Positions 50,492 to 64,000 of a DNA stretch of 64,000 nucleotides are shown piece after piece (the stretch's first letter is position 1; every line of letters starts with the position of its first letter). The translations under genes and the position numbers were made by a program. The notes below the pieces were generated by a model. That model did no database searches and was not told the DNA's origin. It saw only the letters and a program-made list of their open reading frames with translations. This DNA comes from an uncultured Thermotogae bacterium (GTDB lineage Bacteria; Bipolaricaulota; Bipolaricaulia; UBA7950; UBA9294), in assembly GCA_964354815.1 (NCBI GenBank), contig CAYHBG010000001.1, positions 10,803-74,802 on the forward strand, written 5' to 3'.

Positions 50492-51348
50492 CCGAGCTTC
50501 TCCAGGGCCTCTTCGCGGGTCAGGATCTCCTGGTCGATCTCCGCCAGGACGGCTGCCCGGAACTCGCTGGCCTGCGGATCGCGGAACGCGATCTCGCGCA
50601 GGAAGGTCGCCTCCGTGATGGCCTGCTCACCTACGTGGGCGATCTTCACGGACGTGTCCACGAAGATCCGGCAGCCGGCGGCGACGGCCTCGCGGCAGAA
50701 CAGGAAGTCCTCGCCCCACTCCTCCTCCCAGCGGAAGAACGGTGCCGGGCGCTGCTTCTGGCGCTCCTCGAAGGTCCCGAAGGACTCCTTGGCCTGCGCC
50801 TGGAGGATGCGGTCGAAGACCCTCTTGTGGACGAGGCAGAAGGCCATGCCCGTGGCATCCACCTCAACGGCGGAGTCCTCGGGCCACTTCTCCATGTAGG
50901 TGTAGCCGTGGGCACCGTGGGGGGCGAGCTTGTACATCGTCGGCTGGTAGGGATCGCCACGCTGGAAGCAGAGGCCGCCCAGGATGTCGAGGTCGAACTT
51001 CTCGCGAGTCTCGACCAGCACCCTGACGGCCTCAGGCTGCCAGGCCATGTCGGAGTCGATGAACAGGATCCAGTCCCCCTCCATCTCGTTGATGCAGGAG
51101 TTGCGCTGGAAGGTCAGGACGTTGCCGACGATGATGAACTTCTTGATGTACTGGCCGGGCTTGAGGTACGTCGTGTCGGTCATCATCAGCGAGACCGCCG
51201 TCGGGGCGGCGATCTTGTCCCGCGTGATCATGGCGATGGTGCCTACGCACTCGCTCTTGCCGGCCTCGACGATCTCGAACTTCTCCATCTCGAGACCGTC
51301 CGTGACCCCGGCCCGCCTGGGGTGGCGGGCCTTAGGCTGGGTGGTCAT
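50482..51348 (-). CDS. glycosyltransferase family 2 (GT-A fold)
   Basis: DxD motif in LFIDSDMAWQPEAV; GT-A type N-terminal Rossmann region; 288 aa. Confidence 0.65.
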   Translation of the reverse strand: MTTQPKARHPRRAGVTDGLEMEKFEIVEAGKSECVGTIAMITRDKIAAPTAVSLMMTDTTYLKPGQYIKKFIIVGNVLTFQRNSCINEMEGDWILFIDSDMAWQPEAVRVLVETREKFDLDILGGLCFQRGDPYQPTMYKLAPHGAHGYTYMEKWPEDSAVEVDATGMAFCLVHKRVFDRILQAQAKESFGTFEERQKQRPAPFFRWEEEWGEDFLFCREAVAAGCRIFVDTSVKIAHVGEQAITEATFLREIAFRDPQASEFRAAVLAEIDQEILTREEALEKLGWK

Positions 51349-51687
51349 CTACGCGACGACGATGGTCGCGGGGTCGAGGACGGCGGACTCGGAGAGGGGA
51401 TTGGTCACGTCGTAGAGCTGGACGGTCCAGGTGCCGGCGGACGGGAAGATGTACGAGTTGAACTGGAACGCGCCGTCCGGCGTGGTGCCGAAGACCTGGC
51501 TCTGCCCCTGGGTCGCGCCGAGAACCGTCATCCTCAGGACGTAACGCTTCTCGGGAGAGGTCGGGTAGAGGAGCGGATCGTAGCTCCCCGTGTCGTTGGG
51601 GTCGGTGCCTGCGATGGCGAAGGTGCAGACATCCTTCTTGGCGGTGATGGCCCCCGAGGCGGGGGTGACGGTGATCGTTGCGGCCAT
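51349..51687 (-). CDS. small Ig-like/beta-sandwich protein (112 aa)
   Basis: MAATITVTPASGAIT...TWTVQLYDVTNPLSE; ATG 51687 in ATGA overlap; sits between two GT2 genes. Confidence 0.35.
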   Translation of the reverse strand: MAATITVTPASGAITAKKDVCTFAIAGTDPNDTGSYDPLLYPTSPEKRYVLRMTVLGATQGQSQVFGTTPDGAFQFNSYIFPSAGTWTVQLYDVTNPLSESAVLDPATIVVA

Positions 51688-52493
51688 CAGGTGGACTCCT
51701 TCTCGAGGGTGAACTCGGATCGACTGTACGGGATCACGACCCGCTCCGACATGGTCAAGCCCAGCACGTTGACGGGCTTTCGGCACGGGCACTCCTCGCA
51801 CACGTCGAAGTCGTGACCGTTGACCGTCTGGCGAACCATCCGATGCTCTTCCATGATCTCCCCGCGAGCTCGGGAGGGGAAGAGGTCCACTTCAGGGTGC
51901 CAGGCGAATGGTGGCTCGTGGACGAACGACCGGAAGTCGTTCCCGACCCCCAGCCGACGCCCGAGTTGCTGGTCCTCGGACCCGTGGTGTCCGAGGTAGG
52001 CGAGGTCGAACCCGCCGACCTTCCAGAAGAGGTTCCGGCGGATCGCCAGCAGGCCAGCGTAGCTGCTCTGCCAGCCGTGCCAGGTGTTGACGGCGGTCTC
52101 CCTCGAGCGTCCCACGAAGGAGGGAAGTTCGAGCAGTTTCTCCCGCCCGTAGCGGGCGAAGTCGATGAAGCGGTGATGGCCCCAGCAGAAGTCATCCTTC
52201 AGCGCGATGCGAGTCGCCTCCTCCAGCATCTCCCTCGGGGCGATGAGATCGTCGTCGAGGAAGACGAGGACATCGGAGGTTGCCACGTCGGCTCCGATGT
52301 TCCGGCGAAGCCCGGCATCACCGTGTCCAATGGGCTGCGTGTCGCTGGCGAAGCGGACAAGAGTCACACCCTCGACAGCCACCTCGTTGCTGACCACCAC
52401 GACCTCGTCAGGCTTCAGCGTGCCTTGACCCAGGCTCCAGACGAGATCGTCCACCGTCGATCTCGTGGTCGGCACGATGACGGAGGTGGTCAT
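51687..52493 (-). CDS. glycosyltransferase family 2 (GT-A fold)
   Basis: VIVPT...N N-terminal and VLVFLDDDLI DxD motif; 268 aa. Confidence 0.6.
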   Translation of the reverse strand: MTTSVIVPTTRSTVDDLVWSLGQGTLKPDEVVVVSNEVAVEGVTLVRFASDTQPIGHGDAGLRRNIGADVATSDVLVFLDDDLIAPREMLEEATRIALKDDFCWGHHRFIDFARYGREKLLELPSFVGRSRETAVNTWHGWQSSYAGLLAIRRNLFWKVGGFDLAYLGHHGSEDQQLGRRLGVGNDFRSFVHEPPFAWHPEVDLFPSRARGEIMEEHRMVRQTVNGHDFDVCEECPCRKPVNVLGLTMSERVVIPYSRSEFTLEKEST

Positions 52494-53152
52494 GACGCGA
52501 GGATGAGCTCGGACCTGGCCCGGAACAGGGCCTCGTCCTGGTCCCAGCCCTTCTGGACATCGCGGTAGGTCGAGTCCCAGGGGAGCGAGTTGGAAGACCC
52601 GAACAGGGGATGGAGATGCTCCACGATGGACTCCATCGCCCTCGCGATCTCACCACGCCGGAGAGCCGTGAGGAACATCTCGTTGTCGGCGAAGTTGTGG
52701 GCGTAGCCGGGGTGGAACGCGAGGCCGGGGGCGTCGAACACCGCCCGCTCGAGATACTCCCGGCGGATCAGCGCCTGGGTCCCGTTGGCGTTGTGGAGAT
52801 CGTTCACGACCACGACCGAGGGACCCGCGTCCATCACCCGCAGCGCGGACGTGAGCCAGCCGGCATGGTGGATCACGTCGTCAGAACCGAAGAAGATCGT
52901 CTTCGCGTCGTCGAGCCAGCGCACCAGCTTGTTCATGCGGGTGACGTAGCGGCGGTCGTCGCAGTCGCTGTCATCGACGTACCACTCCCCCAGCTCGTCC
53001 AGGATCGTCATGGACTCGGGGTCGCTGACCATGAACAGGATGAAGTGGGACTCGGGCGTGTTCTGGTGGATGTTGGAAACCACGTCCCGGATCCGCTGGG
53101 GACGGTCGAGGGAGGGCACCAGGATGGCGCAGGGGAGGAGGTCAGAGATCAC
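52490..53152 (-). CDS. GT-A-like glycosyltransferase (third paralog-type, 220 aa)
   Basis: ILVPSLDRP N-terminal beta-strand-Asp pattern and FFGSDDV DxD-like motif. Confidence 0.45.
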   Translation of the reverse strand: MISDLLPCAILVPSLDRPQRIRDVVSNIHQNTPESHFILFMVSDPESMTILDELGEWYVDDSDCDDRRYVTRMNKLVRWLDDAKTIFFGSDDVIHHAGWLTSALRVMDAGPSVVVVNDLHNANGTQALIRREYLERAVFDAPGLAFHPGYAHNFADNEMFLTALRRGEIARAMESIVEHLHPLFGSSNSLPWDSTYRDVQKGWDQDEALFRARSELILAS

Positions 53153-53969
53153 GGAACGTCTCCGACTCGCGCCAGAAGACCCTCGGCTCCCAGCCTGGCA
53201 CGTTGTTGTGGCCGACGTAGCTCCGGGAGTCGCCGTACCGCTCGGGACCGTGGACGTAGTCGAGATCCAGGTAGTTCGCCATGTCGTTGACGGTCACCAC
53301 GTTGGCCGATCCGCCACCCACGTCCCAGGTCTGGGTCGCGTAGAGCTTCGGGTCCGACATCTGGAGCAGCAACAGGTTGACGTAGTCGCTGACGTGGAGG
53401 AGGTCGCGGCGCTGGAGACCATCGCCGTTGACGACGACCTCCTTCCCCTCCTTCTTCGCCTGGAGGAACCAGGCGATCCAGCCTGACTCGAACGACCCGG
53501 CCTGTCCCGGACCGTAGATGGTGCCAGGGCGGTTGATGACCAGCGGGAACTCGAAGCTGCGGGACATCTCGAGGCACCAGGTCTCGACCATCTGCTTAGC
53601 CGCTCCGTAGGGCGTCATCCCGTCGCGGGCCTTCACCGAGCTGGTGAGGAGCAGCGGGATGTCGAGGCTGGCTGCCACCTGGGCGACCGTGACCGCAGAC
53701 ATCACCGTGTCGCGGAACGTGTCGTAGGGCCGGCTGATGCTGCCCAGCGTCGAGCAGGACCCTGCGAGGTGGATGATGAGGTCCGGCTCCTTGATGGTGA
53801 GTTGCCCGGCGGACCATCTCGAGGCCAGGTCCATCCCGGTCGTCTTGTCAGCGGAGATGACCCCGATCCCGCGATCCTTCAGCGCCTTGACGGTGTGCCG
53901 GCCGACGAACCCGTCGGACCCGGTGACGAGAACCCTCACTTCCTCACCATCCAGAAGCTCCCCGGCCAA
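53142..53969 (-). CDS. NAD-dependent epimerase/dehydratase (extended SDR)
   Basis: VLVTGSDGFVG (GxxGxxG) and YGAAK (YxxxK); TTG start per ORF track; 275 aa. Confidence 0.65.
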   Translation of the reverse strand: MAGELLDGEEVRVLVTGSDGFVGRHTVKALKDRGIGVISADKTTGMDLASRWSAGQLTIKEPDLIIHLAGSCSTLGSISRPYDTFRDTVMSAVTVAQVAASLDIPLLLTSSVKARDGMTPYGAAKQMVETWCLEMSRSFEFPLVINRPGTIYGPGQAGSFESGWIAWFLQAKKEGKEVVVNGDGLQRRDLLHVSDYVNLLLLQMSDPKLYATQTWDVGGGSANVVTVNDMANYLDLDYVHGPERYGDSRSYVGHNNVPGWEPRVFWRESETFRDL

Positions 53970-54577
53970 CGCTGGGGGGTGAACGACGGGAACACCTTCA
54001 ACTCCTCACGGGACGCCTGGTGACTCGACCACAACACCTCCCACGACCCGGTGTCGAGGGCTTGCTGGAGGTGGTCCTGTTCATCGTAGCCACGGTCGCT
54101 CCACGTTTCCGGGTAGGGATCGGGGAGGAAGATGTCGTGGACGTGGACGACGACACCAGGGCGCAGCGTCGGCAGGATCTCGTGGTACAGGATGTCCACG
54201 TCGTTCCCGGCAGCCCACTTGTGGCTGGAGTCGATGAACAGGATGTCCCCCTCGACGAGCCAGTCGAACAGCTCCCGTGGGGCATCCTCGAGACGTACCC
54301 GGCGGTGATCGACAACGGGATCGAGGGTCGTCCTCGGGTCTGGGTCGATGGCAACCAGCGTGCCTCCGTAACCGTCCCGGAGGTTGGACCGCATGGCCGC
54401 GAGCGAGACTGCGGTGGAGTGACCGGCCCCGACCTCGATGATCCTGCCGGGGTGGTACTTGATCACCATCGCGTACAGGACCTCGGCATCGACCGACCCG
54501 AACCAGGTGTTCTCGATGTCGTATCCGATGCCCTCGAAGCCCTCCTGCCACCTGGCAAGGTTCGCGGCGGTGATCAT
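53936..54577 (-). CDS. class I SAM-dependent methyltransferase (TylF/macrocin-O-methyltransferase-like sugar O-MTase)
   Basis: EVGAGHST motif I, LFIDSSHKW motif; 213 aa; ATGA overlap with the upstream epimerase. Confidence 0.6.
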   Translation of the reverse strand: MITAANLARWQEGFEGIGYDIENTWFGSVDAEVLYAMVIKYHPGRIIEVGAGHSTAVSLAAMRSNLRDGYGGTLVAIDPDPRTTLDPVVDHRRVRLEDAPRELFDWLVEGDILFIDSSHKWAAGNDVDILYHEILPTLRPGVVVHVHDIFLPDPYPETWSDRGYDEQDHLQQALDTGSWEVLWSSHQASREELKVFPSFTPQRWPGSFWMVRK

Positions 54578-55479
54578 CCGAGGTAGGACTTGTAGTAGGC
54601 CACGGTGTTCGCCACACCCATCTCGAGGGGCAGGAGCTCCCAGTCCCCGATCAGGGGCTTCAGGGTCTCGGGGTTGCCCACGACGACGGACTTCTCGTCC
54701 TCGCCGGCACGCATCGGGAGGTGGGTGATCTCCACCGCCCGGTTGGTCACCTTCGTCACCTCGTCGGCCACGATGGCGGCGATGTCGTTGACGGTCGTCC
54801 TCCGGCCCGTCCCGGCCTCTGCCGTCGCCTGCGGACCGCCGATGGTCTCCTCGAGGGCCGCCACGAGGATGTGGGCCACGTCGGTGACGTAGATCATGTC
54901 CATGATCTGGGAGCCGTCGCCGTAGATCTCGATGGGCATCCCGGTCAGGGCGCGGCAGATGAAGCTGGGCATGATCTTGCGGACCTTGGACGGACCGAAC
55001 GGCTCTGCGGCAACCTGGCGGGGACCGTAGGCGTTCAGCGCCCGGACCACCGACATCCTGCTGTGGCGGAAGCGGACGTGCATGTCCACGAACCGCTCGA
55101 TGGTGTTCTTGGTGATCGAGTAGGTGTTGTTCATCCAGTAGTTGCCGACGGCGATGTTGACCAGCGGCACGTCGTACTGGGCGCAGGCCTCGAGGACGTT
55201 CAGGCCCCCCAGGATGTTCGTCTCAGCCGCCGGCCGAGGGTTCTTGACCGTCTCCTGAGTGCCGAGGACGCCAGCCAGGTGGATGACTCCATCGGCATGG
55301 GCGACAGCCTCGGTGACGGCGGTTGCATCACGGACATCTCCAAGAACGAGCTGCGCTCCTGCTGCTGGCTCCCGGTAGCGGGTGTCGAGGACGGCGGGCG
55401 AGTATCCAAGGTGGGAGAGCTCCTCCACGACGTAGCGGCCGATGAACCCGTTGCCACCTGTGACTAGGACTGTCTTCAC
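54574..55479 (-). CDS. NAD-dependent epimerase/dehydratase (UDP-sugar 4-epimerase or 4,6-dehydratase type)
   Basis: VLVTGGNGFIGRY (GxxGxxG), YSITK (YxxxK); 301 aa; first gene of the glycan block downstream of the terminator. Confidence 0.7.
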   Translation of the reverse strand: MKTVLVTGGNGFIGRYVVEELSHLGYSPAVLDTRYREPAAGAQLVLGDVRDATAVTEAVAHADGVIHLAGVLGTQETVKNPRPAAETNILGGLNVLEACAQYDVPLVNIAVGNYWMNNTYSITKNTIERFVDMHVRFRHSRMSVVRALNAYGPRQVAAEPFGPSKVRKIMPSFICRALTGMPIEIYGDGSQIMDMIYVTDVAHILVAALEETIGGPQATAEAGTGRRTTVNDIAAIVADEVTKVTNRAVEITHLPMRAGEDEKSVVVGNPETLKPLIGDWELLPLEMGVANTVAYYKSYLG

Positions 55480-55519
55480 GATCCCTCCCGAGGATGAGGA
55501 GTGCGGGCGGGGACCTGGG

Positions 55520-55552
55520 GGAAGCCCCCGCCCGAGTGGAAGGCTACGCCTC
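55520..55552 (-). terminator. hairpin gggcgggg-N12-ccccgccc downstream of the Thr-rich small gene
   Basis: 8-bp GC inverted repeat in the 64-nt gap between 55544 and 55479. Confidence 0.4.
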
Positions 55553-56035
55553 GTCGTAGCTGTAGTTGACGGTCTGCTGGGTCCAGTTGCCCGGTCCAGC
55601 AGTCGCGCCCACAGCGAGCTGCATCACGAGGTACTTGGTGTACGAGCCGGTCTGGGCGGCCGTGTACTGGGCGTTGTCCCAGACCGCCTTCGCGCCGGAC
55701 GTGTAGCTCGTCGCCACCGCGTTGGCGATGGTGGAGGTGGCCGTGGTGCCCTGCTGGTACGTCACATAGGCCCCGGTGAAGTTCAGCGTGGTGGACGTGT
55801 CCACGGTGCTGTTGAACCACACCTTGAAGCTCTGGACGTAGTTCGCGGGGGTCGCGGTGATCTTGAGCCGGATCCACTTCTCGTAGGAGTTGGTGCCGAC
55901 CGTGATCGGGTTGGCCTGGCGGTTCGCCAGGCTGTTGGTGCTGTTGTCGGCCGAGATCAGGTCCACGCCGGTCACGGAGTCCGTGACGGTGGGGCCTGCC
56001 CCGTAGGAGACAGCGACAACGAGGGTTGCGGCCAT
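55544..56035 (-). CDS. Thr/Ser-rich beta-type structural protein (163 aa), candidate decoration protein or glycosylation substrate
   Basis: ATG 56035 with AGGAG RBS; about 25% Thr+Ser; immediately downstream of portal and upstream of the glycan enzyme genes; followed by a terminator hairpin. Confidence 0.45.
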   Translation of the reverse strand: MAATLVVAVSYGAGPTVTDSVTGVDLISADNSTNSLANRQANPITVGTNSYEKWIRLKITATPANYVQSFKVWFNSTVDTSTTLNFTGAYVTYQQGTTATSTIANAVATSYTSGAKAVWDNAQYTAAQTGSYTKYLVMQLAVGATAGPGNWTQQTVNYSYDEA

Positions 56036-56084
56036 TCAGGTTGCTCCTGTGCTGAAGCCCTGCCTACGACGGCTCGGCTGGAGT

Positions 56085-57491
56085 CTAGGACCGCTCGATC
56101 AGGCCCTTGGCGATGTCGTCCCGGCGCTCCATGTACCCCCTCACGAGGGCCTCAAGCTCGGGCGACATGTCCTTGGTGCTGCTGGCGGGCTTCGACTGTC
56201 CAGCCGCCGGAGCGGGCGGAGGAGTGGCGACCTCCTTGGCGGAGAGAACGTCATCGACGGTCACGACGCCGAGGGGAGTGTTCGCCATGAGCTTGTTGTA
56301 CGGGTTGTTCTCGTCGTTGGGGTCCCCCAGCGGAGGCCGACCCTCGTCCATCCGGGCCTCGTTGACTGGCTTCCAAGGCATGCCTGCGAGCGCCAACTTG
56401 TTGATGTTGGCCTTGGACATGGACTCCTTGATGTTCAGCCGCGTGAACCTGAAGGCGAGGTTGTTGCGGTTCCCTCCGTAGGCGTCGTCCCAGACGATCT
56501 CCCGTGTGAAGTAGTCCTGCACGAGCGCCAGAAGTGGCCGGAGACCCTGGTCCTCGGTCATCTCGAGCTGACTCTCAGCGGTGGCCCGGTTGATGTCCAT
56601 CGTGATGCCCAGGTCCTGCGGTGAGATCAGGTAGACCGCGCAGATCTTGAGGACGAGGTACTTGAGCCACTCCTGGTACTGCATCTCTCGGTTGCTGCCA
56701 CGGAACGGGACGAACTTCGCCCCCTTCGTGCCACCGATGAAGGCCATCGCCCCCTTGCCGGCCACCTCGTACTGCCAGTACGACTTGAAGCCCTCGACCT
56801 GTTCCGGCCGAGCGCCCTCGCCCAGGTCAAGCATCCCGTCGGGGGCAGCGTTGGTGACCTGGCGGGTGTTGTACTGGGAGCCGGTCAGCTCCGCGTCCAC
56901 GGTCATCTTGAGGGTCTCGAGGGGAGACAGGCCGACGACCGAGTACGTCCTGGGGTTCGCCATGATGTAGACGATGTCCTCGTTCTTGAACGGGACCTCG
57001 TAGGTGGGGGTGGGGACCCAGAAGTAGCGTGGCTCGTCAGGATCACCGTCCCACAGGGAGTTGACCTTGATCTTGGCCCCGTCCACCGCGTGGAGGGCGG
57101 CCAGGCTGCCGCCGAGGGTGCGCTCCTTCTCGATGCTGCCGGCGTCGAGGACCAGGATGTCCTCCACGATGGGTTCGACCCAGGAACGGAAGGACTCCAC
57201 CGCCGGATTGGGGCGGATGAACAGGTCGCGGAGCTCCTCCTGCATCGCCTCGTTGAAGGGCTTCGCCTGGTCGAAGGGGACGATGTCCCACTCCGCCGAG
57301 GAGACCTGGGCCTTGCGGACGTTGATCGCGGCCCGGATCCACTCCGAGTGCTCGGCCCAGTTGCGGAACAGGGCACTCGAGCTCTTGCCGACCTTCCCCC
57401 GCTCCTGGAAGACCAGGTTGGCGCTCCCCGGCGGGAGGTTCTTGGGGCTGGTCTTGTAGGACCACGTCAGGAGGTTGGAGATCAGGCCCAT
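56085..57491 (-). CDS. portal protein
   Basis: 468 aa directly downstream of TerL (with a 71-aa gene between them); typical portal size and position; ATG 57491. Confidence 0.75.
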   Translation of the reverse strand: MGLISNLLTWSYKTSPKNLPPGSANLVFQERGKVGKSSSALFRNWAEHSEWIRAAINVRKAQVSSAEWDIVPFDQAKPFNEAMQEELRDLFIRPNPAVESFRSWVEPIVEDILVLDAGSIEKERTLGGSLAALHAVDGAKIKVNSLWDGDPDEPRYFWVPTPTYEVPFKNEDIVYIMANPRTYSVVGLSPLETLKMTVDAELTGSQYNTRQVTNAAPDGMLDLGEGARPEQVEGFKSYWQYEVAGKGAMAFIGGTKGAKFVPFRGSNREMQYQEWLKYLVLKICAVYLISPQDLGITMDINRATAESQLEMTEDQGLRPLLALVQDYFTREIVWDDAYGGNRNNLAFRFTRLNIKESMSKANINKLALAGMPWKPVNEARMDEGRPPLGDPNDENNPYNKLMANTPLGVVTVDDVLSAKEVATPPPAPAAGQSKPASSTKDMSPELEALVRGYMERRDDIAKGLIERS

Positions 57492-57706
57492 CAGCGGAGC
57501 TCCCGAAAGTGCGCCGCAAGAAGATGGTCTTGCTGGGCGTTGAGGAAGTTGGACTCCTGCTGCTTGTTCCCGGCCTCGATGGCCTCCTCGTAGGTGAGGC
57601 GGTGGGTGTCGATCCCGGCCAGGATCACGGCGAGGTATGCAGGGACCTGGCGCTTCCCGTCTCGGAACTCGTATTCGATCCAGGGCTGTCCCAGGTCTAG
57701 CATCAT
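57491..57706 (-). CDS. small hypothetical protein (71 aa) between terminase and portal
   Basis: ATG 57706; ATGA overlap with the portal start; ORF-track N-terminus is an over-extension. Confidence 0.35.
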   Translation of the reverse strand: MMLDLGQPWIEYEFRDGKRQVPAYLAVILAGIDTHRLTYEEAIEAGNKQQESNFLNAQQDHLLAAHFRELR

Positions 57707-57710
57707 CACC

Positions 57711-59213
57711 TCAAGCTGCTGCTCGGACGCTGCCGAAGAAGAACGTGTCGCCACCCATGTCCATCGAGTACCCGAGGGAGTCCACGAAGTCGTCGTGCCC
57801 CTTGTGGAAGGACAGCAGCTCGACCTCGAAGGCCGTGCCACGCAGGGAGGCGTGGTGGAGGACCTTGTGCCCCTCGTACTTGGCGGCGACGGCCCGACCA
57901 CGGGTGACCTTGTCGCCATCCGCCGGCTTCCCCTCGATGGGGATGCGGGGGTAGTCCTCCATGACCTCCTGGATCAGGGTGGACTGGAACTGGACCTTCT
58001 CGACGAGAACCAGGCTGATGCTGGGGTAGGCCATCCAGCCGTCGTAGACGAACTCGGCATGATGACTCTCGCGCTTGTCGCGGTAGGCGGAGAGGACGTA
58101 GAACATGCCCCGCAGCATGCAGCCGCTCTGGCACACGTCCTCGGCGGTCGTCACGCGGGCGGTGAAGTCGGCCCTTTCCTTGGTCGAGCTCGCCAGGTCC
58201 ACGCCCATGCGGATCGTGTACTGGTGCCCCTCGGGAAGGGTCGTGAAGTGCTCGAACGGGCCGTGGAAGATGTTGCCCTCGAGCAGGCCCGAGATGTCGT
58301 TCTGGTAGGAGCACGAGAAGAGGGCCGACCCCATCTCCTCCTTCTCCTTGAGCAGCCGGTCCACCGACCAGTACTCCGGCCAGTAGCTGTGAAGCTGCCC
58401 CCGCTCGTCTTCGGTCAGAGCGGACACGACGTGGCTCTTCCACCCGAAGCCCCCGTCGTAGGTGGGCTTCATGAACTGCTCGTAGAGGTCTTCCTCGCCC
58501 CACCTGGTGCCGATCACGACGACCACGCCGTCGGGGGCCAGGCAGGGCTTGAGGGTCTTCTTGAACCAGACCTCGACATCCTCACGCTGGTCCACGCTCT
58601 GCGTGTTCTCCTCGTCGAGGATGTCGTCCATGAGGATGAGGTCGAACCGCTTGCTGATGATCGCGCCGCCGACCCCGACGGCGAACAGCGTCACGTCCTT
58701 GCTGCCCAGCCACCTCGAGCCGGCGCAGAGCCACTCCTTGTCGGTCCACTTGGCGGCCGACGGCTTCGACTCCGGGAAGACGAGCCTGTGGGCGCTGTTC
58801 TGCTCGACGGTGTACTTGATCGCCCGGCTGAAGTCCTTGGCCTGGGTGTCGGTGTTGGACACCATCCCGATGCGGATGTCGGGGTACTTGCCGACCAGCC
58901 AGGAGCACAGGATCGTGTTGTCCCAGGTGGTCTTGGCCCCGCCCCGGGGAAGGAGGTAGACCTCGTGCTCTCGGTAGAGGATCGACTCGAGCGTCTCCGC
59001 GACCATGTCGCGGTGATGCTGGGCGGGGATGTAGCCGAAGACGAGCTCGCCGTAGGCGAAGACGGCGTCCGGGCCGTCAGTTCTCGCCAGTTCGACTAAG
59101 GCGAGGGATCGGAGATCGTTCAGCGTTCGAGGGGGCAAGCCCTCGAGTTGCTTCAACAATGCCTCGAAGAAGGTCGGTTCCGACTGCTCCAGAGGCAGAT
59201 AGGCTGACACCAA
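57711..59213 (-). CDS. terminase large subunit
   Basis: Walker A variant LLPRGGAKTT, Walker B-like DLILMDD, C-terminal RNaseH-like nuclease region (GVDLASS...D); 500 aa. Confidence 0.8.
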   Translation of the reverse strand: MVSAYLPLEQSEPTFFEALLKQLEGLPPRTLNDLRSLALVELARTDGPDAVFAYGELVFGYIPAQHHRDMVAETLESILYREHEVYLLPRGGAKTTWDNTILCSWLVGKYPDIRIGMVSNTDTQAKDFSRAIKYTVEQNSAHRLVFPESKPSAAKWTDKEWLCAGSRWLGSKDVTLFAVGVGGAIISKRFDLILMDDILDEENTQSVDQREDVEVWFKKTLKPCLAPDGVVVVIGTRWGEEDLYEQFMKPTYDGGFGWKSHVVSALTEDERGQLHSYWPEYWSVDRLLKEKEEMGSALFSCSYQNDISGLLEGNIFHGPFEHFTTLPEGHQYTIRMGVDLASSTKERADFTARVTTAEDVCQSGCMLRGMFYVLSAYRDKRESHHAEFVYDGWMAYPSISLVLVEKVQFQSTLIQEVMEDYPRIPIEGKPADGDKVTRGRAVAAKYEGHKVLHHASLRGTAFEVELLSFHKGHDDFVDSLGYSMDMGGDTFFFGSVRAAA

Positions 59214-59646
59214 GGGAACGCTCCTCCGTGATGTTCGACGGGTGGCCGAACAGGACGTTCAGGCGGTCGATGAGGATGGCGATGTCCTGGGGCCGCACGA
59301 CGACAACGGTCTCCTCGACCCAGTCGTTGTTCCGCATCACCATCCGGGTGGCCTTCATGTCGGCCCGCATCTTCGTGATCGCCTCGTCGATGGCCTCGAT
59401 GGCGTTGTCGCGGACGCGCATCTCCTGGGCCCGTCGCATCCCCTCGGCGTCGGCCATGTAGACCACGGCCTTCTCGGACGCCCCACGGCGATATTCGTCA
59501 CGCTTCCGCACCCACTCCCGGGCCTTGCTCTGGGCCACGACGACGGAGTGGTTGGAGATGCCGTGGGAGCGGGCGAGCTCCCGCAGCCCCATGTCCCCGG
59601 TGACGTATTCGCGCTCAAGGAGGGCGTAGTCGTGCTTCGTGTTCAC
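59077..59646 (-). CDS. terminase small subunit (HTH N-terminus), 3' end overlapping terL
   Basis: GTG 59646 in GTGA overlap with the upstream gene; MGLRELARSHGISNHSV helix-turn-helix; position immediately upstream of TerL; about 136-nt overlap with the annotated TerL start. Confidence 0.5.
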   Translation of the reverse strand: MNTKHDYALLEREYVTGDMGLRELARSHGISNHSVVVAQSKAREWVRKRDEYRRGASEKAVVYMADAEGMRRAQEMRVRDNAIEAIDEAITKMRADMKATRMVMRNNDWVEETVVVVRPQDIAILIDRLNVLFGHPSNITEERSLGVSLSASGAVGTDLLRGIVEATRGLAPSNAERSPIPRLSRTGEN

Positions 59647-59969
59647 CTGATGTCCCTTGTCACCCCGTGCCGGAAGTCGGGCTCCCACCAGACCTCGACG
59701 CGGGTGATCTTGGGGTGGTTGATCAGCAGCCGTTCCATGACCCAGGAGGCGATGCCCTGCCCTGTCTGGGAGCCCCCGATGAGCATGTCCCCCAAGCTGT
59801 GGAGGTGGAGCTCGGCGCAGATGTTCGCCAGGTTCGACTGGAGCTTCGTGGTGACCTCGGTCTGCTCCGTCACCTCCACCTCGAAGTGGTGGCCGTGAAG
59901 GTGCAGGCTCTCGAGGGGGTCGTTATGGGTCGCGTCGAAGCTGTCTCTCGCGAGGACGTATCGACTCAC
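59643..59969 (-). CDS. QueD/6-pyruvoyl-tetrahydropterin synthase (PTPS)-fold enzyme
   Basis: SFDATHNDP and ESLHLHGHHFEVEVT align with E. coli QueD FTFEAAHRLP and CGRLHGHSFMVRLE; His triad present, the conserved Cys is replaced (E/S). Confidence 0.55.
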   Translation of the reverse strand: MSRYVLARDSFDATHNDPLESLHLHGHHFEVEVTEQTEVTTKLQSNLANICAELHLHSLGDMLIGGSQTGQGIASWVMERLLINHPKITRVEVWWEPDFRHGVTRDIR

Positions 59970-60143
59970 GAATGGGATCCTCCGGCATGAAAAGAGGACG
60001 GGCCGGCCACAGCAATGACCGACCCGTCCATTCGGGGCTACCGGCGCTCGACCATCCTGGAGGTCAACCGGGAGAGGGGGAGCGCCAGACGAAGACCCTA
60101 TGCAGTTGTACCACGAAGCCTACAGCGCGGGGAAGATGCTGCG

Positions 60144-60395
60144 CTAGCCCTCCTGGTTGGCTTCTGGTGCGTTCAGGTCGTACCAGCGGTCTGTTTCGAC
60201 CCTGTAACGGTAGTCCACGGTGAAGTCGGTGACCTTGATCTCCGCGATCTCGCCGTTCTCGAGGACCACGATCCCGTAGAGCTCGTCGTCCTGGGTGTTC
60301 TCCATCCCGATCAACAGCCCGTTCCTGCCGTCGATCCAGGAGGCCTTGATGGAGACCCTCGGGGGATCCCCGAACAGGGAGATGGGTGCGCTCAC
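60144..60395 (-). CDS. hypothetical protein (83 aa)
   Basis: Complete ORF, mixed composition (MSAPISLFGDPPRVSIKASWIDGRNGLLIGMENTQDDELYGIVVLENGEIAEIKV). Confidence 0.45.
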   Translation of the reverse strand: MSAPISLFGDPPRVSIKASWIDGRNGLLIGMENTQDDELYGIVVLENGEIAEIKVTDFTVDYRYRVETDRWYDLNAPEANQEG

Positions 60396-60538
60396 AGCCT
60401 GCCCTCGATGGTGAAGGTTCCACGGTCAACCAGGTAGACCGGCCTCGAGTCCGACCGGGTGGTCACCTCGGTGAAGGAGCGGTCGAAGCTGATCTTGATG
60501 TCGTCGGTCTCGATGGTCAGGACACTCCCGTCAGGCAT
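60392..60538 (-). CDS. small hypothetical protein (48 aa); N-terminal extension in ORF track rejected
   Basis: Only the C-terminal MPDGSVLTIETDDIKISFDRSFTEVTTRSDSRPVYLVDRGTFTIEGRL part has protein-like composition. Confidence 0.2.
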   Translation of the reverse strand: MPDGSVLTIETDDIKISFDRSFTEVTTRSDSRPVYLVDRGTFTIEGRL

Positions 60539-60788
60539 CGAGATCACGATCTGCGCCTTCGGACCGCCGGGCTTCAGCTCGAGCTCTCGCGGCGGCGTAG
60601 GACGCGCTGATGGCAGCGACCACCTGGGGGTCGGGGACAGGTTCGTGGGGCTGGTCGTAGACCCCGGCCGGAACATATCCCGAAGCTCGGAGATCTCGTG
60701 CGTCGTGATACCACGTTCCCCGGAAGTCCCGGATGACCCTGAGGCCGCAGTCCTCGACCTGGCAGATGCTCTCGCCATGAAAGCTCAC
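60531..60788 (-). CDS. hypothetical protein (85 aa)
   Basis: Codon-position GC check over 60600-60670 supports this frame (3rd position ~88% GC, 2nd ~48%); GTG 60788 in GTGA overlap with the upstream Zn-finger gene. Confidence 0.3.
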   Translation of the reverse strand: MSFHGESICQVEDCGLRVIRDFRGTWYHDARDLRASGYVPAGVYDQPHEPVPDPQVVAAISASYAAARARAEARRSEGADRDLDA

Positions 60789-61048
60789 CGGATCCCGGAG
60801 CACTTGGCGCACAGGGACGGGCACGCGATCAGGTCCCCCAGGCCGACGTAGAAGCAGATCCTCCGCTGGCCGCAGGCGGCGCACTTCTGGCGGGCCGTGC
60901 GGTGGAGCTTGATCGTGATCGAGATCGCCATCGGGCTGTCCGGTCCGGCGGCGAAGCTGGTGTCGATTGCCGACGCGAACATGCCCAACTGGTCGGGGTG
61001 GTGCGGTACCGGGGCTCGCAGAGGTGAAACGGTAGCTCCAGGTGCCAT
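60785..61048 (-). CDS. zinc-finger protein (87 aa)
   Basis: QKCAACGQRRICFYVGLGDLIACPSLCAKCSGIR (CxxC ... CxxxC). Confidence 0.4.
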   Translation of the reverse strand: MAPGATVSPLRAPVPHHPDQLGMFASAIDTSFAAGPDSPMAISITIKLHRTARQKCAACGQRRICFYVGLGDLIACPSLCAKCSGIR

Positions 61049-61050
61049 GT

Positions 61051-61539
61051 TCAGTCCCTCAGGATGGCTGGTGTGCCGGGGCCGGCGTAGAGGCCCACGG
61101 TGTTGAACTCGAGGTACTCCCGGGCGTCTTCGTCGGACATCACGTCGCCGTCCGTCAGGATGGCGACCATCTTCTCGTAGCTGTAGACGAGGAAGTAGCG
61201 ATGACCGCCCTCCTCGAACCTCTCGGCCACGCCCACGAAGGCGTCCTCCATGCCGTCGAACAGGACGAGCTCCTCCTCGTCGAGCCCAGGAAACTCCGCG
61301 ATCCGCTCCAGGATGTCGTCGCGGATCATCTTCTTCTTCGCGCCCCTGGTCACCGTCTTGCTCAGGATGTACGCCCGAACGTCCTTGCCGTCGTATCGAC
61401 GGTCCCCGCGAGACCCCACGCGGAAGTAGGGGAGCTCCTCGGGCGGGATCCGCTTCACGGTGTTGCCGTGGATGCCGAGGAGGGCAGCGACATCGTCAAC
61501 ATTGAGGACGTAGTCGCCCCTGGCCTGCCCGTTGCTCAC
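61051..61539 (-). CDS. DNA-binding protein with N-terminal excisionase/MerR-type HTH
   Basis: YVLNVDDVAALLGIHGNTVKRIPPEELPYFRVGSRGDRRYDGKDVRAYI matches the Xis/MerR-family HTH pattern; 162 aa. Confidence 0.5.
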   Translation of the reverse strand: MSNGQARGDYVLNVDDVAALLGIHGNTVKRIPPEELPYFRVGSRGDRRYDGKDVRAYILSKTVTRGAKKKMIRDDILERIAEFPGLDEEELVLFDGMEDAFVGVAERFEEGGHRYFLVYSYEKMVAILTDGDVMSDEDAREYLEFNTVGLYAGPGTPAILRD

Positions 61540-62381
61540 AGGAGATCCCCCTGCCCGCGGACCAGGTACATCGCGAAGGACACCGCGTGGGCCCAGGTGT
61601 TGCCCGAGTGGCCGGGATCGATCCAGGGGAAGAGGGACTCGAGGAGCTTGTACTGGTAGTTGTTGGGGGCACCGTTGATCGCGTCGATGGCGAGCAAGCG
61701 GTTCTCGGGGGTGTCCACCCAGTCGGTGATGCCGACGCCCTTGGGCTGGTCCCAGGATCTGATCGTGACGTCACCCAGCTTGATCTTGTTGGCCTTGAGC
61801 AGAATGCCCGTCGCGGGGTCCATCGCGGCCTTGTACAGCCTGCCGGCCTCGGAACAGGCCGCCATCTCGTAGGCCTCCTCCTTCCAGCGGAAGTCGGGGT
61901 CCTCGGCCCGGAACCTGTCGATCCGGCGCTTGAGGGCCGGCGGCAGCGCGTCGTACTCGGCGTCGAGCTCGGTGACGTGGTCCACGAAGTCCTGGCGCTG
62001 CTTCTTCTGGTGGTCCGCGATCCAGGCGGCGTGTTCCACGTCCATCTCGCGCTTGGTCTTGTAGTAGACGTGGACGGGCTCTGTGTAGCGCCCATGCATG
62101 TCCGGTGCCAGCAGATCCACGCCGTGGTTCTGGTTGCCGTTGCTCCAGACGCGGATGAGCATGCCCTTCTTCGGACGGGGCGAGATCGGCCAGGGCATCC
62201 TGGTTGTCCAGCCGCCGAAGGTGTTCTTGCCGGCGACGGAGTCACGGGAAACGGTGACGGTCGCGGACTCGCCGTCGTCACCCTCCACCTCTGCGATGAG
62301 GAAGTCGCCCCAGTTGCTGTCGGCCTCACGCTCGGCGGCGCGTTCCTTGGGGTCCGCGAGGATGATCGGGTCTCGCATCAT
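61536..62381 (-). CDS. hypothetical protein (about 281 aa)
   Basis: ATG ~62381 (MMRDPIILADPKERAAER...); the ORF-track N-terminal 57 aa are low complexity. Confidence 0.45.
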   Translation of the reverse strand: MMRDPIILADPKERAAEREADSNWGDFLIAEVEGDDGESATVTVSRDSVAGKNTFGGWTTRMPWPISPRPKKGMLIRVWSNGNQNHGVDLLAPDMHGRYTEPVHVYYKTKREMDVEHAAWIADHQKKQRQDFVDHVTELDAEYDALPPALKRRIDRFRAEDPDFRWKEEAYEMAACSEAGRLYKAAMDPATGILLKANKIKLGDVTIRSWDQPKGVGITDWVDTPENRLLAIDAINGAPNNYQYKLLESLFPWIDPGHSGNTWAHAVSFAMYLVRGQGDLL

Positions 62382-62635
62382 CGGTCTCCATCCAGGGTGC
62401 GGGCCTCGAGGTGGGAGTCCACCGGCTGGCCGAAGTAGATGCCCAGGGCCTCGAGCTGCTCGAGGGTCTCGCCATCGCGCTCCGGGGAGCGAAGCAATGG
62501 CATCTCCCGCGCCACCCACGGCCGAGGCCAGGGGCTGATGTGGGAGAGCCACTCCTCCAGGTGGATGCCTTGCCAGGGACCGCCGACGGTCACGCCGGTA
62601 CCCACGAGATCTCCTTCACGCGGCGCTCCAGCCAC
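62378..62635 (-). CDS. hypothetical protein (85 aa)
   Basis: Complete ORF overlapping neighbours by 4 nt. Confidence 0.35.
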   Translation of the reverse strand: MAGAPREGDLVGTGVTVGGPWQGIHLEEWLSHISPWPRPWVAREMPLLRSPERDGETLEQLEALGIYFGQPVDSHLEARTLDGDR

Positions 62636-62805
62636 GCCATGTCCGTCTCCGGCCTTGGCATGGCCTCGACGGCCTTGGGGGCCTCCCAGCCACCGTAGGC
62701 CGGGTAGTAGGTCGGGCTGGTGTAGATGACGTTGCTGACCGTGGACGTGCTGGAGTTGGACCAGTTGGTGTTGTAGGTCAGGACGGTGTCGTAGATTGCC
62801 ATCAC
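62590..62805 (-). CDS. hypothetical protein (71 aa) with C-terminal DMAWLERRVKEI motif
   Basis: Shares its C-terminal motif with the adjacent upstream gene (EMAWLKRRVDEI). Confidence 0.35.
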   Translation of the reverse strand: MMAIYDTVLTYNTNWSNSSTSTVSNVIYTSPTYYPAYGGWEAPKAVEAMPRPETDMAWLERRVKEISWVPA

Positions 62806-63257
62806 CTCAACCTCCAGAGACAGATCTCATCGACGCGGCGCTTCAGCCACGCCATCTCGGACTCGCCCACGTTGCGGACGGAGTTAGGGGAGGGCTTGTC
62901 CACGAGGCGGGTGACCGCCTCCGGGCGGCCATCAGCGCCGACCCGGAAGACGGTCTCGACGTTGCTGCTGTCGCTGATCGTCCCGTCGGGCATCAGCCAG
63001 CTCCGATCCTTGTCCCCGAAGGTGGCGACCTCAAGGGGCCGGCGGCCGGCCTCGAGTTGACCGGAGATCTGGCCCCAGAGGTCCTTGTCGGACATCCCCT
63101 TGAGGTTGAGGTTCTGGCGGTCTGCCATCTCCTGCGCGTGCTCCCATCCCCGCTGTGCAAGCGTCTTGCCGACCCGGTTGCCCATCACGATCAACGTGTC
63201 GGGCATCCAGGGCGTCGTGTACACCGGCAACCCGTAGAGAAACGGGTCTCCAGGCAT
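62802..63257 (-). CDS. hypothetical protein (151 aa), paralogous C-terminus to the adjacent gene
   Basis: C-terminal VGESEMAWLKRRVDEICLWRL. Confidence 0.4.
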   Translation of the reverse strand: MPGDPFLYGLPVYTTPWMPDTLIVMGNRVGKTLAQRGWEHAQEMADRQNLNLKGMSDKDLWGQISGQLEAGRRPLEVATFGDKDRSWLMPDGTISDSSNVETVFRVGADGRPEAVTRLVDKPSPNSVRNVGESEMAWLKRRVDEICLWRLR

Positions 63258-63763
63258 CAGACCGTCTTCTTGGTCGTCTCGTTGATCTGGCGGTCCACGG
63301 TGACGGTGGGCAGGCGGTCGAGGATCTGGCCCATGAGGTCCTTGAGGTAGCCGACCTCCTGGGAGAACCGCTCCTCGCGGAACTTCATCTCCTTGACGAA
63401 GGCGATGCGCTCGGTCTCGAGGTTCTCACGCTGGACCTCGAGGATGGCCTCCTTGCGGGCGTGCTCGATGCCCTTCTTGGACTGCTCGGCCTCGAACTCC
63501 TGCCGCTTCCGCTCCAGGCCGACCATGTGGGTCGTCTCGCGGATCTTGCGGTCGTTGTCCTCGACAATCTTGCCCTTGTCGATCTCCAGGCGGCTGATCT
63601 GCTCCTGGAGGCTCTTGATGCGCTTGACGGCGTCACGCTCGGTGGTGACGGCCGCCCGCTCGGCCTTCAGGTCCGCGATCTGGTCCTTGAGGGCCGCGAT
63701 TGTGGTCTCGAGCTCCGCTGTCGCGGTGTCCAGTTGCTTCGTCTGCTTGTCGAACAGTCCCAC
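63257..63763 (-). CDS. coiled-coil protein (168 aa)
   Basis: Heptad-rich Glu/Lys/Arg/Leu sequence throughout (LETTIAALKDQIADLKAERAAV...). Confidence 0.45.
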   Translation of the reverse strand: MGLFDKQTKQLDTATAELETTIAALKDQIADLKAERAAVTTERDAVKRIKSLQEQISRLEIDKGKIVEDNDRKIRETTHMVGLERKRQEFEAEQSKKGIEHARKEAILEVQRENLETERIAFVKEMKFREERFSQEVGYLKDLMGQILDRLPTVTVDRQINETTKKTV

Positions 63764-63833
63764 GGGGTCCTCCCTGATGGTTGGCGAATATCGCCAGCAT
63801 GATGGACCGCACCAGACGGTCCGTCAAGGGCCT

Positions 63834-63959
63834 CTACTTCTTCTTGGTGCCCAACTTTCTCTCGAAGAACTCCCTGTCCTGCTTGGGGAGGCCGGCGAAG
63901 GGGTTGTCGGACGTGCTGCGGGGTCGGAGGGGGTCCGAGGGGGTCCTGGGGTTGGTCAT
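63834..63959 (-). CDS. small basic protein (41 aa)
   Basis: Reverse translation MTNPRTPSDPLRPRSTSDNPFAGLPKQDREFFERKLGTKKK; below the ORF-track cutoff. Confidence 0.2.
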   Translation of the reverse strand: MTNPRTPSDPLRPRSTSDNPFAGLPKQDREFFERKLGTKKK

Positions 63960-64000
63960 GACGGCCACGGCGTCCACCACAACCGGGGGACGGGCTGCGA

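What the first reader, a model, noticed from the sequence alone, without database searches (positions are those of the whole stretch)
59643..59969. QueD/PTPS-fold enzyme lacking the conserved Cys, encoded immediately upstream of the terminase genes
Clear PTPS/QueD signature blocks are present (AtHndp; LHGHhFeVeV). The catalytic Cys of QueD is replaced. A lone QueD-like gene next to the packaging genes could be part of a 7-deazaguanine DNA-modification pathway whose other genes (folE, queC, queE, dpdA) lie outside this window. It could also be a diverged PTPS with another role.
Basis: partly seen in the sequence, partly recalled or inferred. Interest (0 to 1): 0.5.

Follow-up and report, generated by a model that had tools for sequence, protein, structure and literature searches.

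The report
Cysteine-less QueD-like phage late gene
The small gene just ahead of this phage's DNA-packaging genes encodes a real but divergent QueD/PTPS-type enzyme that keeps the zinc site, has glutamate in place of the catalytic cysteine and has no visible partner genes, so its job is probably not the known QueD reaction.

Summary
Window 59969-59643 (minus strand) is a real 108-aa gene. It has about 40 homologous contigs, no length variation and dN/dS of about 0.3. Its stop overlaps the start of the small terminase gene (GTGA).

The three zinc-binding histidines are invariant. Three other QueD catalytic positions are changed:
- The catalytic Cys is gone. Ser21 sits in the Cx3HGH register and invariant Glu20 in the Cx4HGH register.
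- The Asp-His relay is His-Leu.
- The pterin-anchoring Glu is Trp95.

The protein belongs to a phage-only branch of COG0720. More distant members of that branch still carry CxxxHGH. The gene always sits first or second in the late operon, behind a conserved promoter-like box and a leader hairpin.

No folE, queC, queE or dpdA was found in the window plus 4 kb of flank, about 68 of the 76.6 kb contig. The roughly 40 related contigs also lack them. The single exception carries a YhhQ-like transporter and a TGT-like gene.

It is most likely a QueD descendant with a new function, not a CPH4 synthase. The substrate is unknown. I rate it a new variant of a known kind, of moderate interest.

The parts
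59643..59969 (-). PTPS/QueD-like T-fold gene, 108 aa. Zn triad H15/H25/H27. Ex4HGH motif with E20. S21 at the QueD Cys27 column, H55-L56 at the Asp70-His71 columns, W95 at the Glu110 column.
59077..59646 (-). Small terminase subunit gene, 189 aa. Its GTG start overlaps the TGA stop of the PTPS-like gene (GTGA), which suggests translational coupling.
   Evidence: phrog_1206, E = 2.2e-9
57711..59213 (-). Large terminase subunit gene. The exact start is uncertain; relatives are 452-463 aa.
   Evidence: phrog_38, E = 6e-76
56085..57491 (-). Portal protein gene. A conserved 71-aa ORF at 57491-57706 lies just upstream of it.
   Evidence: (PF04860, 1.2e-30)
59996..60029 (-). Leader hairpin that looks like an intrinsic terminator. 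It has 15 pairs and is followed by TCTTTTC (59995-59989). The basal stem GGACGGGTCG/CGACCCGTCC is conserved among relatives. The distal stem varies but stays paired.
60020..60037 (-). Box CCCCGAATGGACGGGTCG. It is conserved upstream of the first late gene even in relatives whose terL is only 53% identical. It overlaps the 5' arm of the hairpin.
60062..60067 (-). TTGACC, a -35-like hexamer inside the near-invariant block TGGTTGACCTCC. Candidate late promoter. This is an inference: the -10 region is poorly conserved and the consensus promoter scan found nothing.
59978..59983 (-). GGAGGA ribosome-binding site, 8 nt before the GTG start.

Best explanation
SHOWN. This is a genuine gene under purifying selection. 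It encodes a 12-kDa acidic T-fold protein of the PTPS/QueD superfamily (COG0720). It belongs to a branch found only in one uncultured, high-GC phage lineage. In that lineage the gene is the first or second cistron of the late (packaging and structural) operon. It lies directly behind a conserved promoter-like box and a leader hairpin, and it is usually coupled to the small terminase gene through a 4-base overlap. The zinc-binding His triad is invariant, but the other QueD catalytic positions are changed. The catalytic Cys is replaced: Glu20 occupies the position held by Cys in the nearest relatives, and Ser21 the position of E. coli Cys27. The Asp-His relay is His-Leu, and the pterin-anchoring Glu is Trp.

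INFERRED. The protein is not a CPH4 synthase. It descends from the QueD gene of an actinophage-type 7-deazaguanine module and survived the loss of the rest of that module because it acquired another job. That job is most likely a zinc-dependent reaction, or tight binding, on a pterin- or purine-like small molecule. Glu20 would act as the general base, in the way Glu replaces Cys in PTPS-III enzymes. It is made together with the packaging proteins, but it is an accessory function and not part of the packaging motor. The substrate and product are unknown.
For: - Real gene. 20 close homologs and at least 150 distant ones, nearly all 100-125 aa. No indels across 12 loci, median dN/dS 0.285.
- Residue mapping. 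H15, H25, H27 and E20 are invariant. S21 aligns with Cys27, H55-L56 with Asp70-His71 and W95 with Glu110.
- Descent from QueD. Relatives carry Cx4HGH (P0023, P0025, L052) or CxxxHGH (P0030, P0046, L058). L032's protein is 37% identical to Sonali QueD, which lies in a full cluster.
- The Cys is required for QueD activity (PMC10516641 section 16; PMC9894224).
- Glu replaces Cys in PTPS-III, signature ExxHGH (PMC5041015).
- Operon position. Identical synteny in all related loci. Conserved leader.
- Accessory, and not DNA-binding. L054 (terL 78% identical) lacks the gene. Distant relatives have ParB_N and small genes between it and terS. The protein has pI 5.8 and net charge -5.7.
- No pathway partners.
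Against: - No biochemical data exist and no ligand can be named.
- The model is a monomer, whereas T-fold active sites form between subunits. The geometry of Glu20 relative to the zinc site was therefore not checked.
- The pterin/purine anchor Glu is lost, so even the class of ligand is uncertain.
- Strict linkage and translational coupling to terS across wide divergence could mean a packaging-related role.
- About 8.6 kb of the contig was not seen.
- Phage DpdA proteins are hard to detect. Pfam missed the Sonali DpdA.
Confidence: 0.5

Rival explanations
1. The protein is an active enzyme of a 7-deazaguanine DNA-modification route, either QueD-like or a DpdL-like base-modifying enzyme. Its partners (FolE, QueE, QueC, DpdA) would be encoded in the unseen part of the genome or supplied by the host.
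For: - The family descends from phage QueD. Sonali has ParB-DpdA-QueC-QueD-QueE-FolE.
- Relatives that keep the Cys have a ParB_N gene beside the PTPS gene.
- The close relative L012 has a Vut_1/YhhQ-like transporter (Pfam 1.7e-9). It also has a homolog of Sonali gp81, which is annotated as 'queuine tRNA-ribosyltransferase'. The model of that homolog matches Cap10, ArcTGT, TGT and DpdA.
- DpdL is a precedent for a Cys-less QueD paralog in such pathways (PMC10516641).
- 8.6 kb of the contig was not seen.
Against: - No DpdA, gp81-like, QueC, QueE or FolE in 68 kb.
- None in about 40 related contigs except L012. This includes 6.7-8.4 kb of the equivalent upstream region in L022 and L031.
- DpdA has been found in all phages and viruses known to carry these modifications (PMC10516641).
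- The Cys, the Asp-His relay and the anchor Glu are all lost.
- The TGT-like fold match for the L012 protein is weak: TM 0.5-0.6, with generic TIM barrels scoring alike.
Confidence: 0.17
2. A non-enzymatic packaging accessory. The T-fold oligomer would work with the small terminase, for example in assembly or in recognising the packaging site. The His triad would be structural.
For: - The gene sits immediately upstream of terS with a GTGA overlap in most relatives. The order is conserved while identity drops to about 30%.
- It evolves at about the rate of terS: 55-80% against 56-66% identity.
Against: - L054 has terS, terL and portal but no PTPS-like gene.
- In L030 and L032, two to four other genes, including ParB_N, separate it from terS.
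- The protein is acidic, with net charge -5.7.
- The residues that are conserved line the enzyme-type metal and ligand pocket.
- No T-fold packaging factor is known to me (own knowledge).
Confidence: 0.13
3. A host-takeover or counter-defence factor that binds or destroys a host purine- or pterin-derived small molecule. Candidates are a deazaguanine precursor used by host Dpd or CBASS type IV systems, or a nucleotide signal.
For: - T-fold proteins bind pterins and purines (PMC10516641 section 16).
- The gene is accessory.
- It is a lone gene without a pathway.
- The ligand-loop region GGSQTGQG is invariant within the clade.
Against: - The gene lies in the late operon, whereas counter-defence genes are usually early (own knowledge).
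- There is no direct evidence of any kind.
- The host is unknown.
Confidence: 0.1
4. A decaying relic of a lost QueD gene with no present function.
For: Four of the canonical QueD catalytic and substrate-binding positions are changed, and one lineage has lost the gene.
Against: - dN/dS is about 0.2-0.3, with no frameshift, stop or indel in 12 loci.
- 30 positions are invariant, including the Zn triad and E20.
- The ribosome-binding site and the coupling to terS are conserved.
Confidence: 0.04

Closest known systems
PH0634 of Pyrococcus horikoshii (PDB 2dj6), a COG0720 protein with the PTPS-III-type signature ExxHGH
   Same: - Same short, roughly 110-aa T-fold.
- Same His triad, no catalytic Cys, and a Glu in the loop before HGH.
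- Shared E53, T69, W76 and E79-R80.
   Different: - In PH0634 the Glu is 3 residues before HGH. Here it is 5 before.
- PH0634 keeps the Asp-His pair (ELDHRNL) and the anchor Glu105. Here these are His-Leu and Trp95.
- PH0634 is a cellular, archaeal protein, not a phage late gene.
QueD / PTPS-I (E. coli QueD, PDB 3qn0 and 4ntm), the CPH4 synthase of the preQ0 pathway
   Different: Cys27 is Ser21, Asp70-His71 is His55-Leu56 and Glu110 is Trp95. The loop between the first His and HGH is 5 residues shorter, and the hairpin after strand 2 is missing. NCBIfam QueD scores 12.9 bits against a cut-off of 89.
QueD (gp89) of Arthrobacter phage Sonali, in a ParB-DpdA-QueC-QueD-QueE-FolE cluster
   Same: It is the only cultured-phage protein found to be related to the wider family. 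It is 37% identical to the PTPS of L032, at E = 2e-13. A ParB-like gene is a neighbour in both.
   Different: Sonali's protein has CxxxHGH (CSRLHGH), the DH pair and a full pathway around it. The window's protein has none of these, and it gives no tblastn hit to any phage in the phage collection.
DpdL, a Cys-less QueD paralog of Cellulophaga phage phiST, predicted to be a CDG decarboxylase (PMC10516641)
   Same: Phage-encoded QueD paralog that keeps the metal-binding histidines and has lost the catalytic Cys. It is a precedent for new chemistry on this scaffold.
   Different: DpdL's signature is LxxxHRHxF. Here the sequence is ESLHLHGHHF, with an invariant Gly in HGH and Ser/Thr/Gly at the Cys column. 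DpdL occurs with DpdA3, FolE, QueD and QueE, none of which is present here. No direct sequence comparison was made.

Membership tests
T-fold / COG0720 (PTPS) superfamily | beta-beta-alpha-alpha-beta-beta tunnelling fold, with significant sequence or profile similarity to PTPS-family proteins | tested here: met
   [not shown]
T-fold / COG0720 (PTPS) superfamily | Zn-binding His triad: one His in strand 1 plus HGH in strand 2 | tested here: met
   H15, H25 and H27 are invariant in 20 of 20 close homologs and align with QueD H16, H31 and H33. Metal binding itself cannot be tested here.
QueD / PTPS-I (CPH4 synthase) | Signature CxxxHGH with the catalytic Cys (PMC5041015, PMC9894224) | tested here: not met
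   The sequence is E20-S21-L-H-L-H25-G-H27. Ser, Thr or Gly occupies the Cys column and there is no Cys anywhere in the loop.
QueD / PTPS-I (CPH4 synthase) | Asp-His relay (E. coli D70/H71) and pterin-anchoring Glu (E110) | tested here: not met
   H55-L56 and W95 align to those columns. The role of His71 is stated in PMC9894224. The roles of D70 and E110 rest on my own knowledge of the QueD structures.
QueD / PTPS-I (CPH4 synthase) | Genomic association with queC, queE and folE (and tgt or dpdA) | tested here: not met
   None in the window plus flanks (68 kb) or in the related loci. 8.6 kb of the contig was not seen.
QueD2 (low-zinc paralog) | Cx4HGH motif, second invariant Cys, length 190-300 aa (PMC9894224) | tested here: not met
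   [not shown]
PTPS-III (FolB-bypass enzyme) | Signature ExxHGH: Glu three residues before HGH, in place of Cys (PMC5041015) | tested here: not met
   The invariant Glu is five residues before HGH. The -3 position (residue 22) is variable: L, I, H, Q, K and others. The resemblance in principle, Glu as base, remains.
PTPS-II (6-pyruvoyltetrahydropterin synthase) | Signature CxxxxxHGH (PMC5041015) | tested here: not met
   There is no Cys in the loop. Rat PTPS is matched only by the distant-relative profile, at E = 7e-6.
DpdL (predicted CDG decarboxylase) | Signature LxxxHRHxF, and co-occurrence with DpdA3, FolE, QueD and QueE without QueC (PMC10516641) | tested here: not met
   The motif here is S/T/G-x-x-x-HGH-x-F with invariant G26. 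None of the partner genes is present. No DpdL sequence was available for a direct alignment.
Phage 7-deazaguanine DNA-modification module | A DpdA-family transglycosylase encoded by the phage, found in all phages and viruses known to carry these modifications (PMC10516641) | tested here: inconclusive
   No match to Sonali DpdA or gp81, to phrog_887, phrog_7068 or phrog_15826, or to a gp81-family HMM in 68 kb. However, 8.6 kb was not seen and DpdA subfamilies are very divergent. Pfam missed the Sonali DpdA.
Phage 7-deazaguanine DNA-modification module | Modified deoxyguanosine in virion DNA | not testable with these tools
   This needs LC-MS/MS of phage DNA.

The most novel reading that the evidence does not exclude
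The Ex4HGH proteins are a new, phage-specific class of zinc T-fold enzymes. A glutamate has taken over from the QueD cysteine and the pterin anchor has been rebuilt (Trp95), so they would carry out a reaction not yet described for COG0720. Candidates are a new step in DNA hypermodification that works on a salvaged host deazapurine or pterin, or the destruction or sequestration of a purine-derived host molecule. The reaction would be timed to DNA packaging, because the gene heads the late operon.
Probability: 0.22. Interest if true: 0.7.

Novelty: new variant of a known kind. Interest (0 to 1): 0.4.

Why it matters
COG0720 is a standard example of a family whose members cannot be annotated by similarity alone. 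Automatic pipelines already label some of these phage proteins '6-pyruvoyl-tetrahydropterin synthase', and that label is almost certainly wrong for this clade.

The family gives a clean natural series inside one phage lineage: CxxxHGH, then Cx4HGH, then Ex4HGH. The gene stays at the same locus throughout, while the rest of a 7-deazaguanine module is absent. That makes it a tractable case for studying how a pathway enzyme is re-used after the pathway is lost.

If the protein proves to be an active enzyme, it would add a new activity to the T-fold repertoire. It might also reveal a new phage DNA-modification or host-interference chemistry. If it proves inert or ordinary, the practical gain is a corrected annotation rule: no Cys in the Cx3-4HGH register means the protein is not QueD.

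Tried and rejected
- Cultured-phage collection (GenBank phage records). DNA of 55000-64000 and tblastn with the protein, and with relative P0030, gave no match. Only two more distant relatives reached Arthrobacter phage Sonali. The best cultured terL hit is 29% identical, so no annotated close relative exists.
- PHROGs and NCBIfam on the protein gave nothing usable.
- GTDB representative genomes. A family-pattern scan and an exact 42-mer both found nothing. No prophage copy was found and no host is assigned.
- The 76,653-bp NCBI contig that holds the exact protein could not be fetched. Only Logan contigs came back, adding 1.7 kb on the right and 2.3 kb on the left. About 8.6 kb stays unseen.
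- A scan for relatives of the left-edge nuclease, meant to bridge that gap, returned no locus.
- Pfam as a DpdA detector was rejected after a positive control failed: the Sonali DpdA gave no Pfam hit. I switched to PHROGs, tblastn, phmmer and a home-built HMM.
- A PDB sequence search with the gp81-like family found nothing. The fold search gave only weak TGT, DpdA and Cap10 resemblance.
- Rfam on the leader upstream of the gene gave no meaningful hit.
- The Phillips et al. 2012 paper on COG0720 was not available. The subfamily signatures were taken from PMC5041015.
- A link to the nearby glycosylation cluster was considered and dropped. The terminase and portal genes lie between, and no known PTPS chemistry acts on sugar nucleotides.
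- A DNA-binding role was considered and dropped because of the acidic charge.

Full report
**What is at the coordinates**

Window 59969-59643 on the minus strand is an ORF of 108 codons. It starts at GTG 59969 and ends at TGA 59645-59643, with GGAGGA 8 nt upstream of the start.

Codon-position GC is 0.61/0.39/0.92, typical of coding sequence in this 65-69% GC window. The stop overlaps the GTG start of the next gene (GTGA). That gene is the small terminase (phrog_1206, E = 2.2e-9). It is followed by the large terminase (phrog_38, 6e-76), a conserved 71-aa ORF and the portal (PF04860, 1.2e-30).

**Is it a real gene, and a real PTPS/QueD relative?**

- A search of 5.8 billion proteins found the identical protein (NCBI and Logan) and 19 homologs at 60-85% identity. 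Almost all are 108 aa.
- Thirty positions are invariant.
- Across 12 loci there is no indel, and median dN/dS is 0.285.
- Single-sequence Pfam is marginal (PTPS, E = 0.005, 17.2 bits, below the cut-off).
- A profile of the 20 sequences matches the PTPS homolog PH0634 at E = 2.8e-7.
- A profile of more distant relatives matches PH0634 at 2.3e-13, E. coli QueD at 6e-9 and rat PTPS at 7e-6.
- The AlphaFold model (pLDDT 84, pTM 0.80) has the beta-beta-alpha-alpha-beta-beta T-fold.

**The active site**

From the alignments with E. coli QueD and PH0634:

| QueD feature | E. coli QueD | This protein | Conservation in the clade |
|---|---|---|---|
| Zn ligands | H16, H31, H33 | H15, H25, H27 | invariant |
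| Catalytic Cys (Cx3HGH register) | C27 | S21 | Ser, Thr or Gly |
| Asp-His relay | D70, H71 | H55, L56 | H55 mostly kept (D or N in three); L56 varies |
| Pterin-anchoring Glu | E110 | W95 | Trp in 18 of 20 |

The loop between the first His and HGH is 5 residues shorter than in QueD. In the nearest outgroup proteins with the same loop length, a Cys lies five residues before HGH (P0023, P0025, L052), which is the Cx4HGH spacing known from QueD2. This clade has an invariant Glu (E20) at exactly that position.

The literature states that the Cys is needed for QueD activity (PMC10516641 section 16) and that it takes part in both catalytic triads (PMC9894224). The protein therefore fails the PTPS-I, PTPS-II, PTPS-III, QueD2 and DpdL signatures (PMC5041015, PMC9894224, PMC10516641) while keeping the metal site. 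A Glu replacing the Cys is what distinguishes PTPS-III, so a Glu base on this scaffold has a precedent.

**The wider family**

A profile search of 1.84 billion cluster representatives gave at least 150 hits, nearly all 100-125 aa. Many of these keep CxxxHGH, and one has CExxHGH. All share the motifs EML.GG and W[IF][ML]ERL with the window's protein.

Every member whose context I could read lies in a phage of the same general architecture, just upstream of the packaging genes:
- L031: PTPS-like, terS, terL, portal.
- L030 and L032: PTPS, a 53-55-aa ORF, ParB_N, up to two further small ORFs (L030 only), then terS and terL.

The only cultured relative found is the QueD (gp89) of Arthrobacter phage Sonali. 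It sits in a complete ParB-DpdA-QueC-QueD-QueE-FolE cluster and is 37% identical to L032's protein. The family therefore descends from the QueD of a phage 7-deazaguanine module.

**Synteny and operon anatomy**

About 40 related contigs show the same gene order: HTH protein, 87-aa ORF, 83-aa ORF, intergenic region, PTPS-like, terS, terL, 71-aa ORF, portal, 163-aa ORF. A glycosylation cluster then follows in most contigs long enough to show it. The PTPS-like protein diverges about as fast as terS (55-80% identity) and faster than terL and portal (77-87%).

Upstream of the first late gene every lineage has the same elements:
- a near-invariant block TGGTTGACCTCC;
- about 30 nt further on, CCCCGAATGGACGGGTCG;
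- a hairpin whose basal stem is conserved and whose distal stem varies while staying paired;
- a T-run;
- a ribosome-binding site.

In the window these lie at 60067-60062 (TTGACC), 60037-60020 (box), 60029-59996 (hairpin) and 59995-59989 (T-run). I read this as a late promoter followed by a leader terminator, which would imply control by antitermination. That is an inference. The consensus promoter scan itself found nothing, and Rfam has no match.

In the window the PTPS-like gene is the first cistron behind this leader. In some relatives a small Cys-containing ORF precedes it.

**Partner genes**

All called genes of the window were scanned against Pfam. No GTP cyclohydrolase I, QueC, radical-SAM QueE or TGT was found.

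A positive control then showed that Pfam does not detect the Sonali DpdA, so I added further searches:
- tblastn and phmmer with Sonali DpdA, gp81, QueC, QueE and FolE;
- an HMM of the gp81-like family against all six-frame ORFs of the window plus the recovered flanks (68 kb);
- PHROGs on 18 otherwise unannotated ORFs of 146 aa or more. PHROGs recognises the Sonali DpdA as phrog_887.

Nothing was found. The same queries found nothing in the related loci. These include 6.7-8.4 kb of the region that corresponds to the unseen part of this genome in L022 and L031.

There is one exception. L012, whose PTPS-like protein is 77% identical, carries a Vut_1/YhhQ-like transporter (E = 1.7e-9). It also carries a 194-aa homolog of Sonali gp81, which is annotated as 'queuine tRNA-ribosyltransferase'. 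The confident model of that homolog (pLDDT 93) weakly resembles Cap10, ArcTGT, TGT and DpdA. This keeps a link to deazaguanine alive for the lineage. It is one contig in about 40, and it is not this phage.

**Essential or accessory?**

L054 (terL 78% identical) has 1.9 kb of sequence upstream of terS and no PTPS-like gene. Together with the extra genes between PTPS and terS in L030 and L032, and with the protein's acidic charge (pI 5.8, net -5.7), this argues against a required role in the packaging machine.

**Conclusion**

Of the two interpretations, 'diverged PTPS with another role' is favoured. 'Part of a 7-deazaguanine pathway with partners elsewhere' is historically apt but not supported for this phage.

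My best account, with confidence about 0.5, is this. The protein is a descendant of phage QueD that acquired a new function. It is probably still a zinc enzyme or ligand binder, with Glu20 as the base. It acts on an unknown pterin- or purine-like molecule and is made as the first product of the late operon.

It is a new variant within a known superfamily. It is moderately interesting, chiefly as a mis-annotation trap and as a case of an enzyme outliving its pathway.

Noticed in passing
window 9781-10038 and 10562-12160 (+): A TROVE/Ro60-like protein gene (PF05731, E = 2.2e-12) is preceded by an 820-nt ORF-free stretch. That stretch holds two Y-RNA-like (YrlA, RF02553) matches, at 9967-10038 (45 bits, E = 9.7e-9) and 9816-9877 (32 bits), and a tRNA-like match at 9781-9847. 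All three are below the gathering score. This looks like a phage-borne Ro60/Y-RNA module.
   Followed up: partly
window 59989-60067 (-), and the same region of L003-L059: A strongly conserved non-coding module lies in front of the first late gene: TGGTTGACCTCC, then CCCCGAATGGACGGGTCG, then a hairpin with a conserved base and a variable but still paired top, then a T-run. It is more conserved than the neighbouring proteins and is present even where terL is only 53% identical. It could be a late promoter with a leader terminator (antitermination) or a packaging site.
   Followed up: partly
L012 30-1233 (+) (IMGVR_UViG_3300036761_000557): One close relative replaces the HTH gene with a YhhQ/Vut_1-like transporter and a 194-aa TIM-barrel protein. 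The latter belongs to a very large unannotated family: more than 7,700 homologs, phrog_15826, and homologous to Sonali gp81. Its model weakly resembles Cap10, TGT and DpdA. It may be a compact DNA or RNA transglycosylase.
   Followed up: partly
window 41982-49850 (-) and 23454-33029 (-): Two giant ORFs. The first is 2,622 aa, lies between the glycosylation genes and the capsid module, has a Laminin_G_3 lectin-like domain at aa 1129-1257 and shows unusual codon-position GC (GC1 0.54, lower than GC2 0.58). The second is 3,191 aa with no Pfam match and may be a tape measure protein.
   Followed up: partly
window 40010-41278 and 49991-55479 (-): A sugar-modification cluster is embedded in the structural module, directly after the portal. 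It has two NAD-dependent epimerase/dehydratases, a Methyltransf_24 methyltransferase, GT2-type glycosyltransferases and a GT1. Relatives have it too. It suggests virion glycosylation.
   Followed up: no
window 55544-56035 (-): A 163-aa Thr/Ala-rich protein right after the portal is the most conserved protein of the region (78-91% identity among relatives). It has no Pfam or PHROG match.
   Followed up: no
L054 1-2556 (IMGVR_UViG_3300006055_000022): A relative with terL 78% identical has no PTPS-like gene upstream of terS. An 85-aa ORF (1372-1626) lies upstream instead.
   Followed up: partly
L030 7190-7828 and L032 3013-3660: In relatives whose PTPS keeps the Cys, a ParB_N protein lies between the PTPS gene and terS. 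It is 33% identical to the ParB-like gp86 that precedes DpdA in phage Sonali. This recalls the ParB-like DpdB of bacterial dpd clusters (own knowledge).
   Followed up: no
whole window: The phage has no close cultured relative. There is no DNA match in the phage collection and the best terL hit is 29% identical. No copy was found in GTDB representative genomes, so the host is unknown. High GC and the Arthrobacter-phage link suggest Actinobacteria.
   Followed up: partly
P0021 (representative library): The top hit of the family profile was a 4,579-aa protein with 70 short matches to profile positions 47-81. It is probably a repeat or low-complexity artefact. It was not examined.
   Followed up: no
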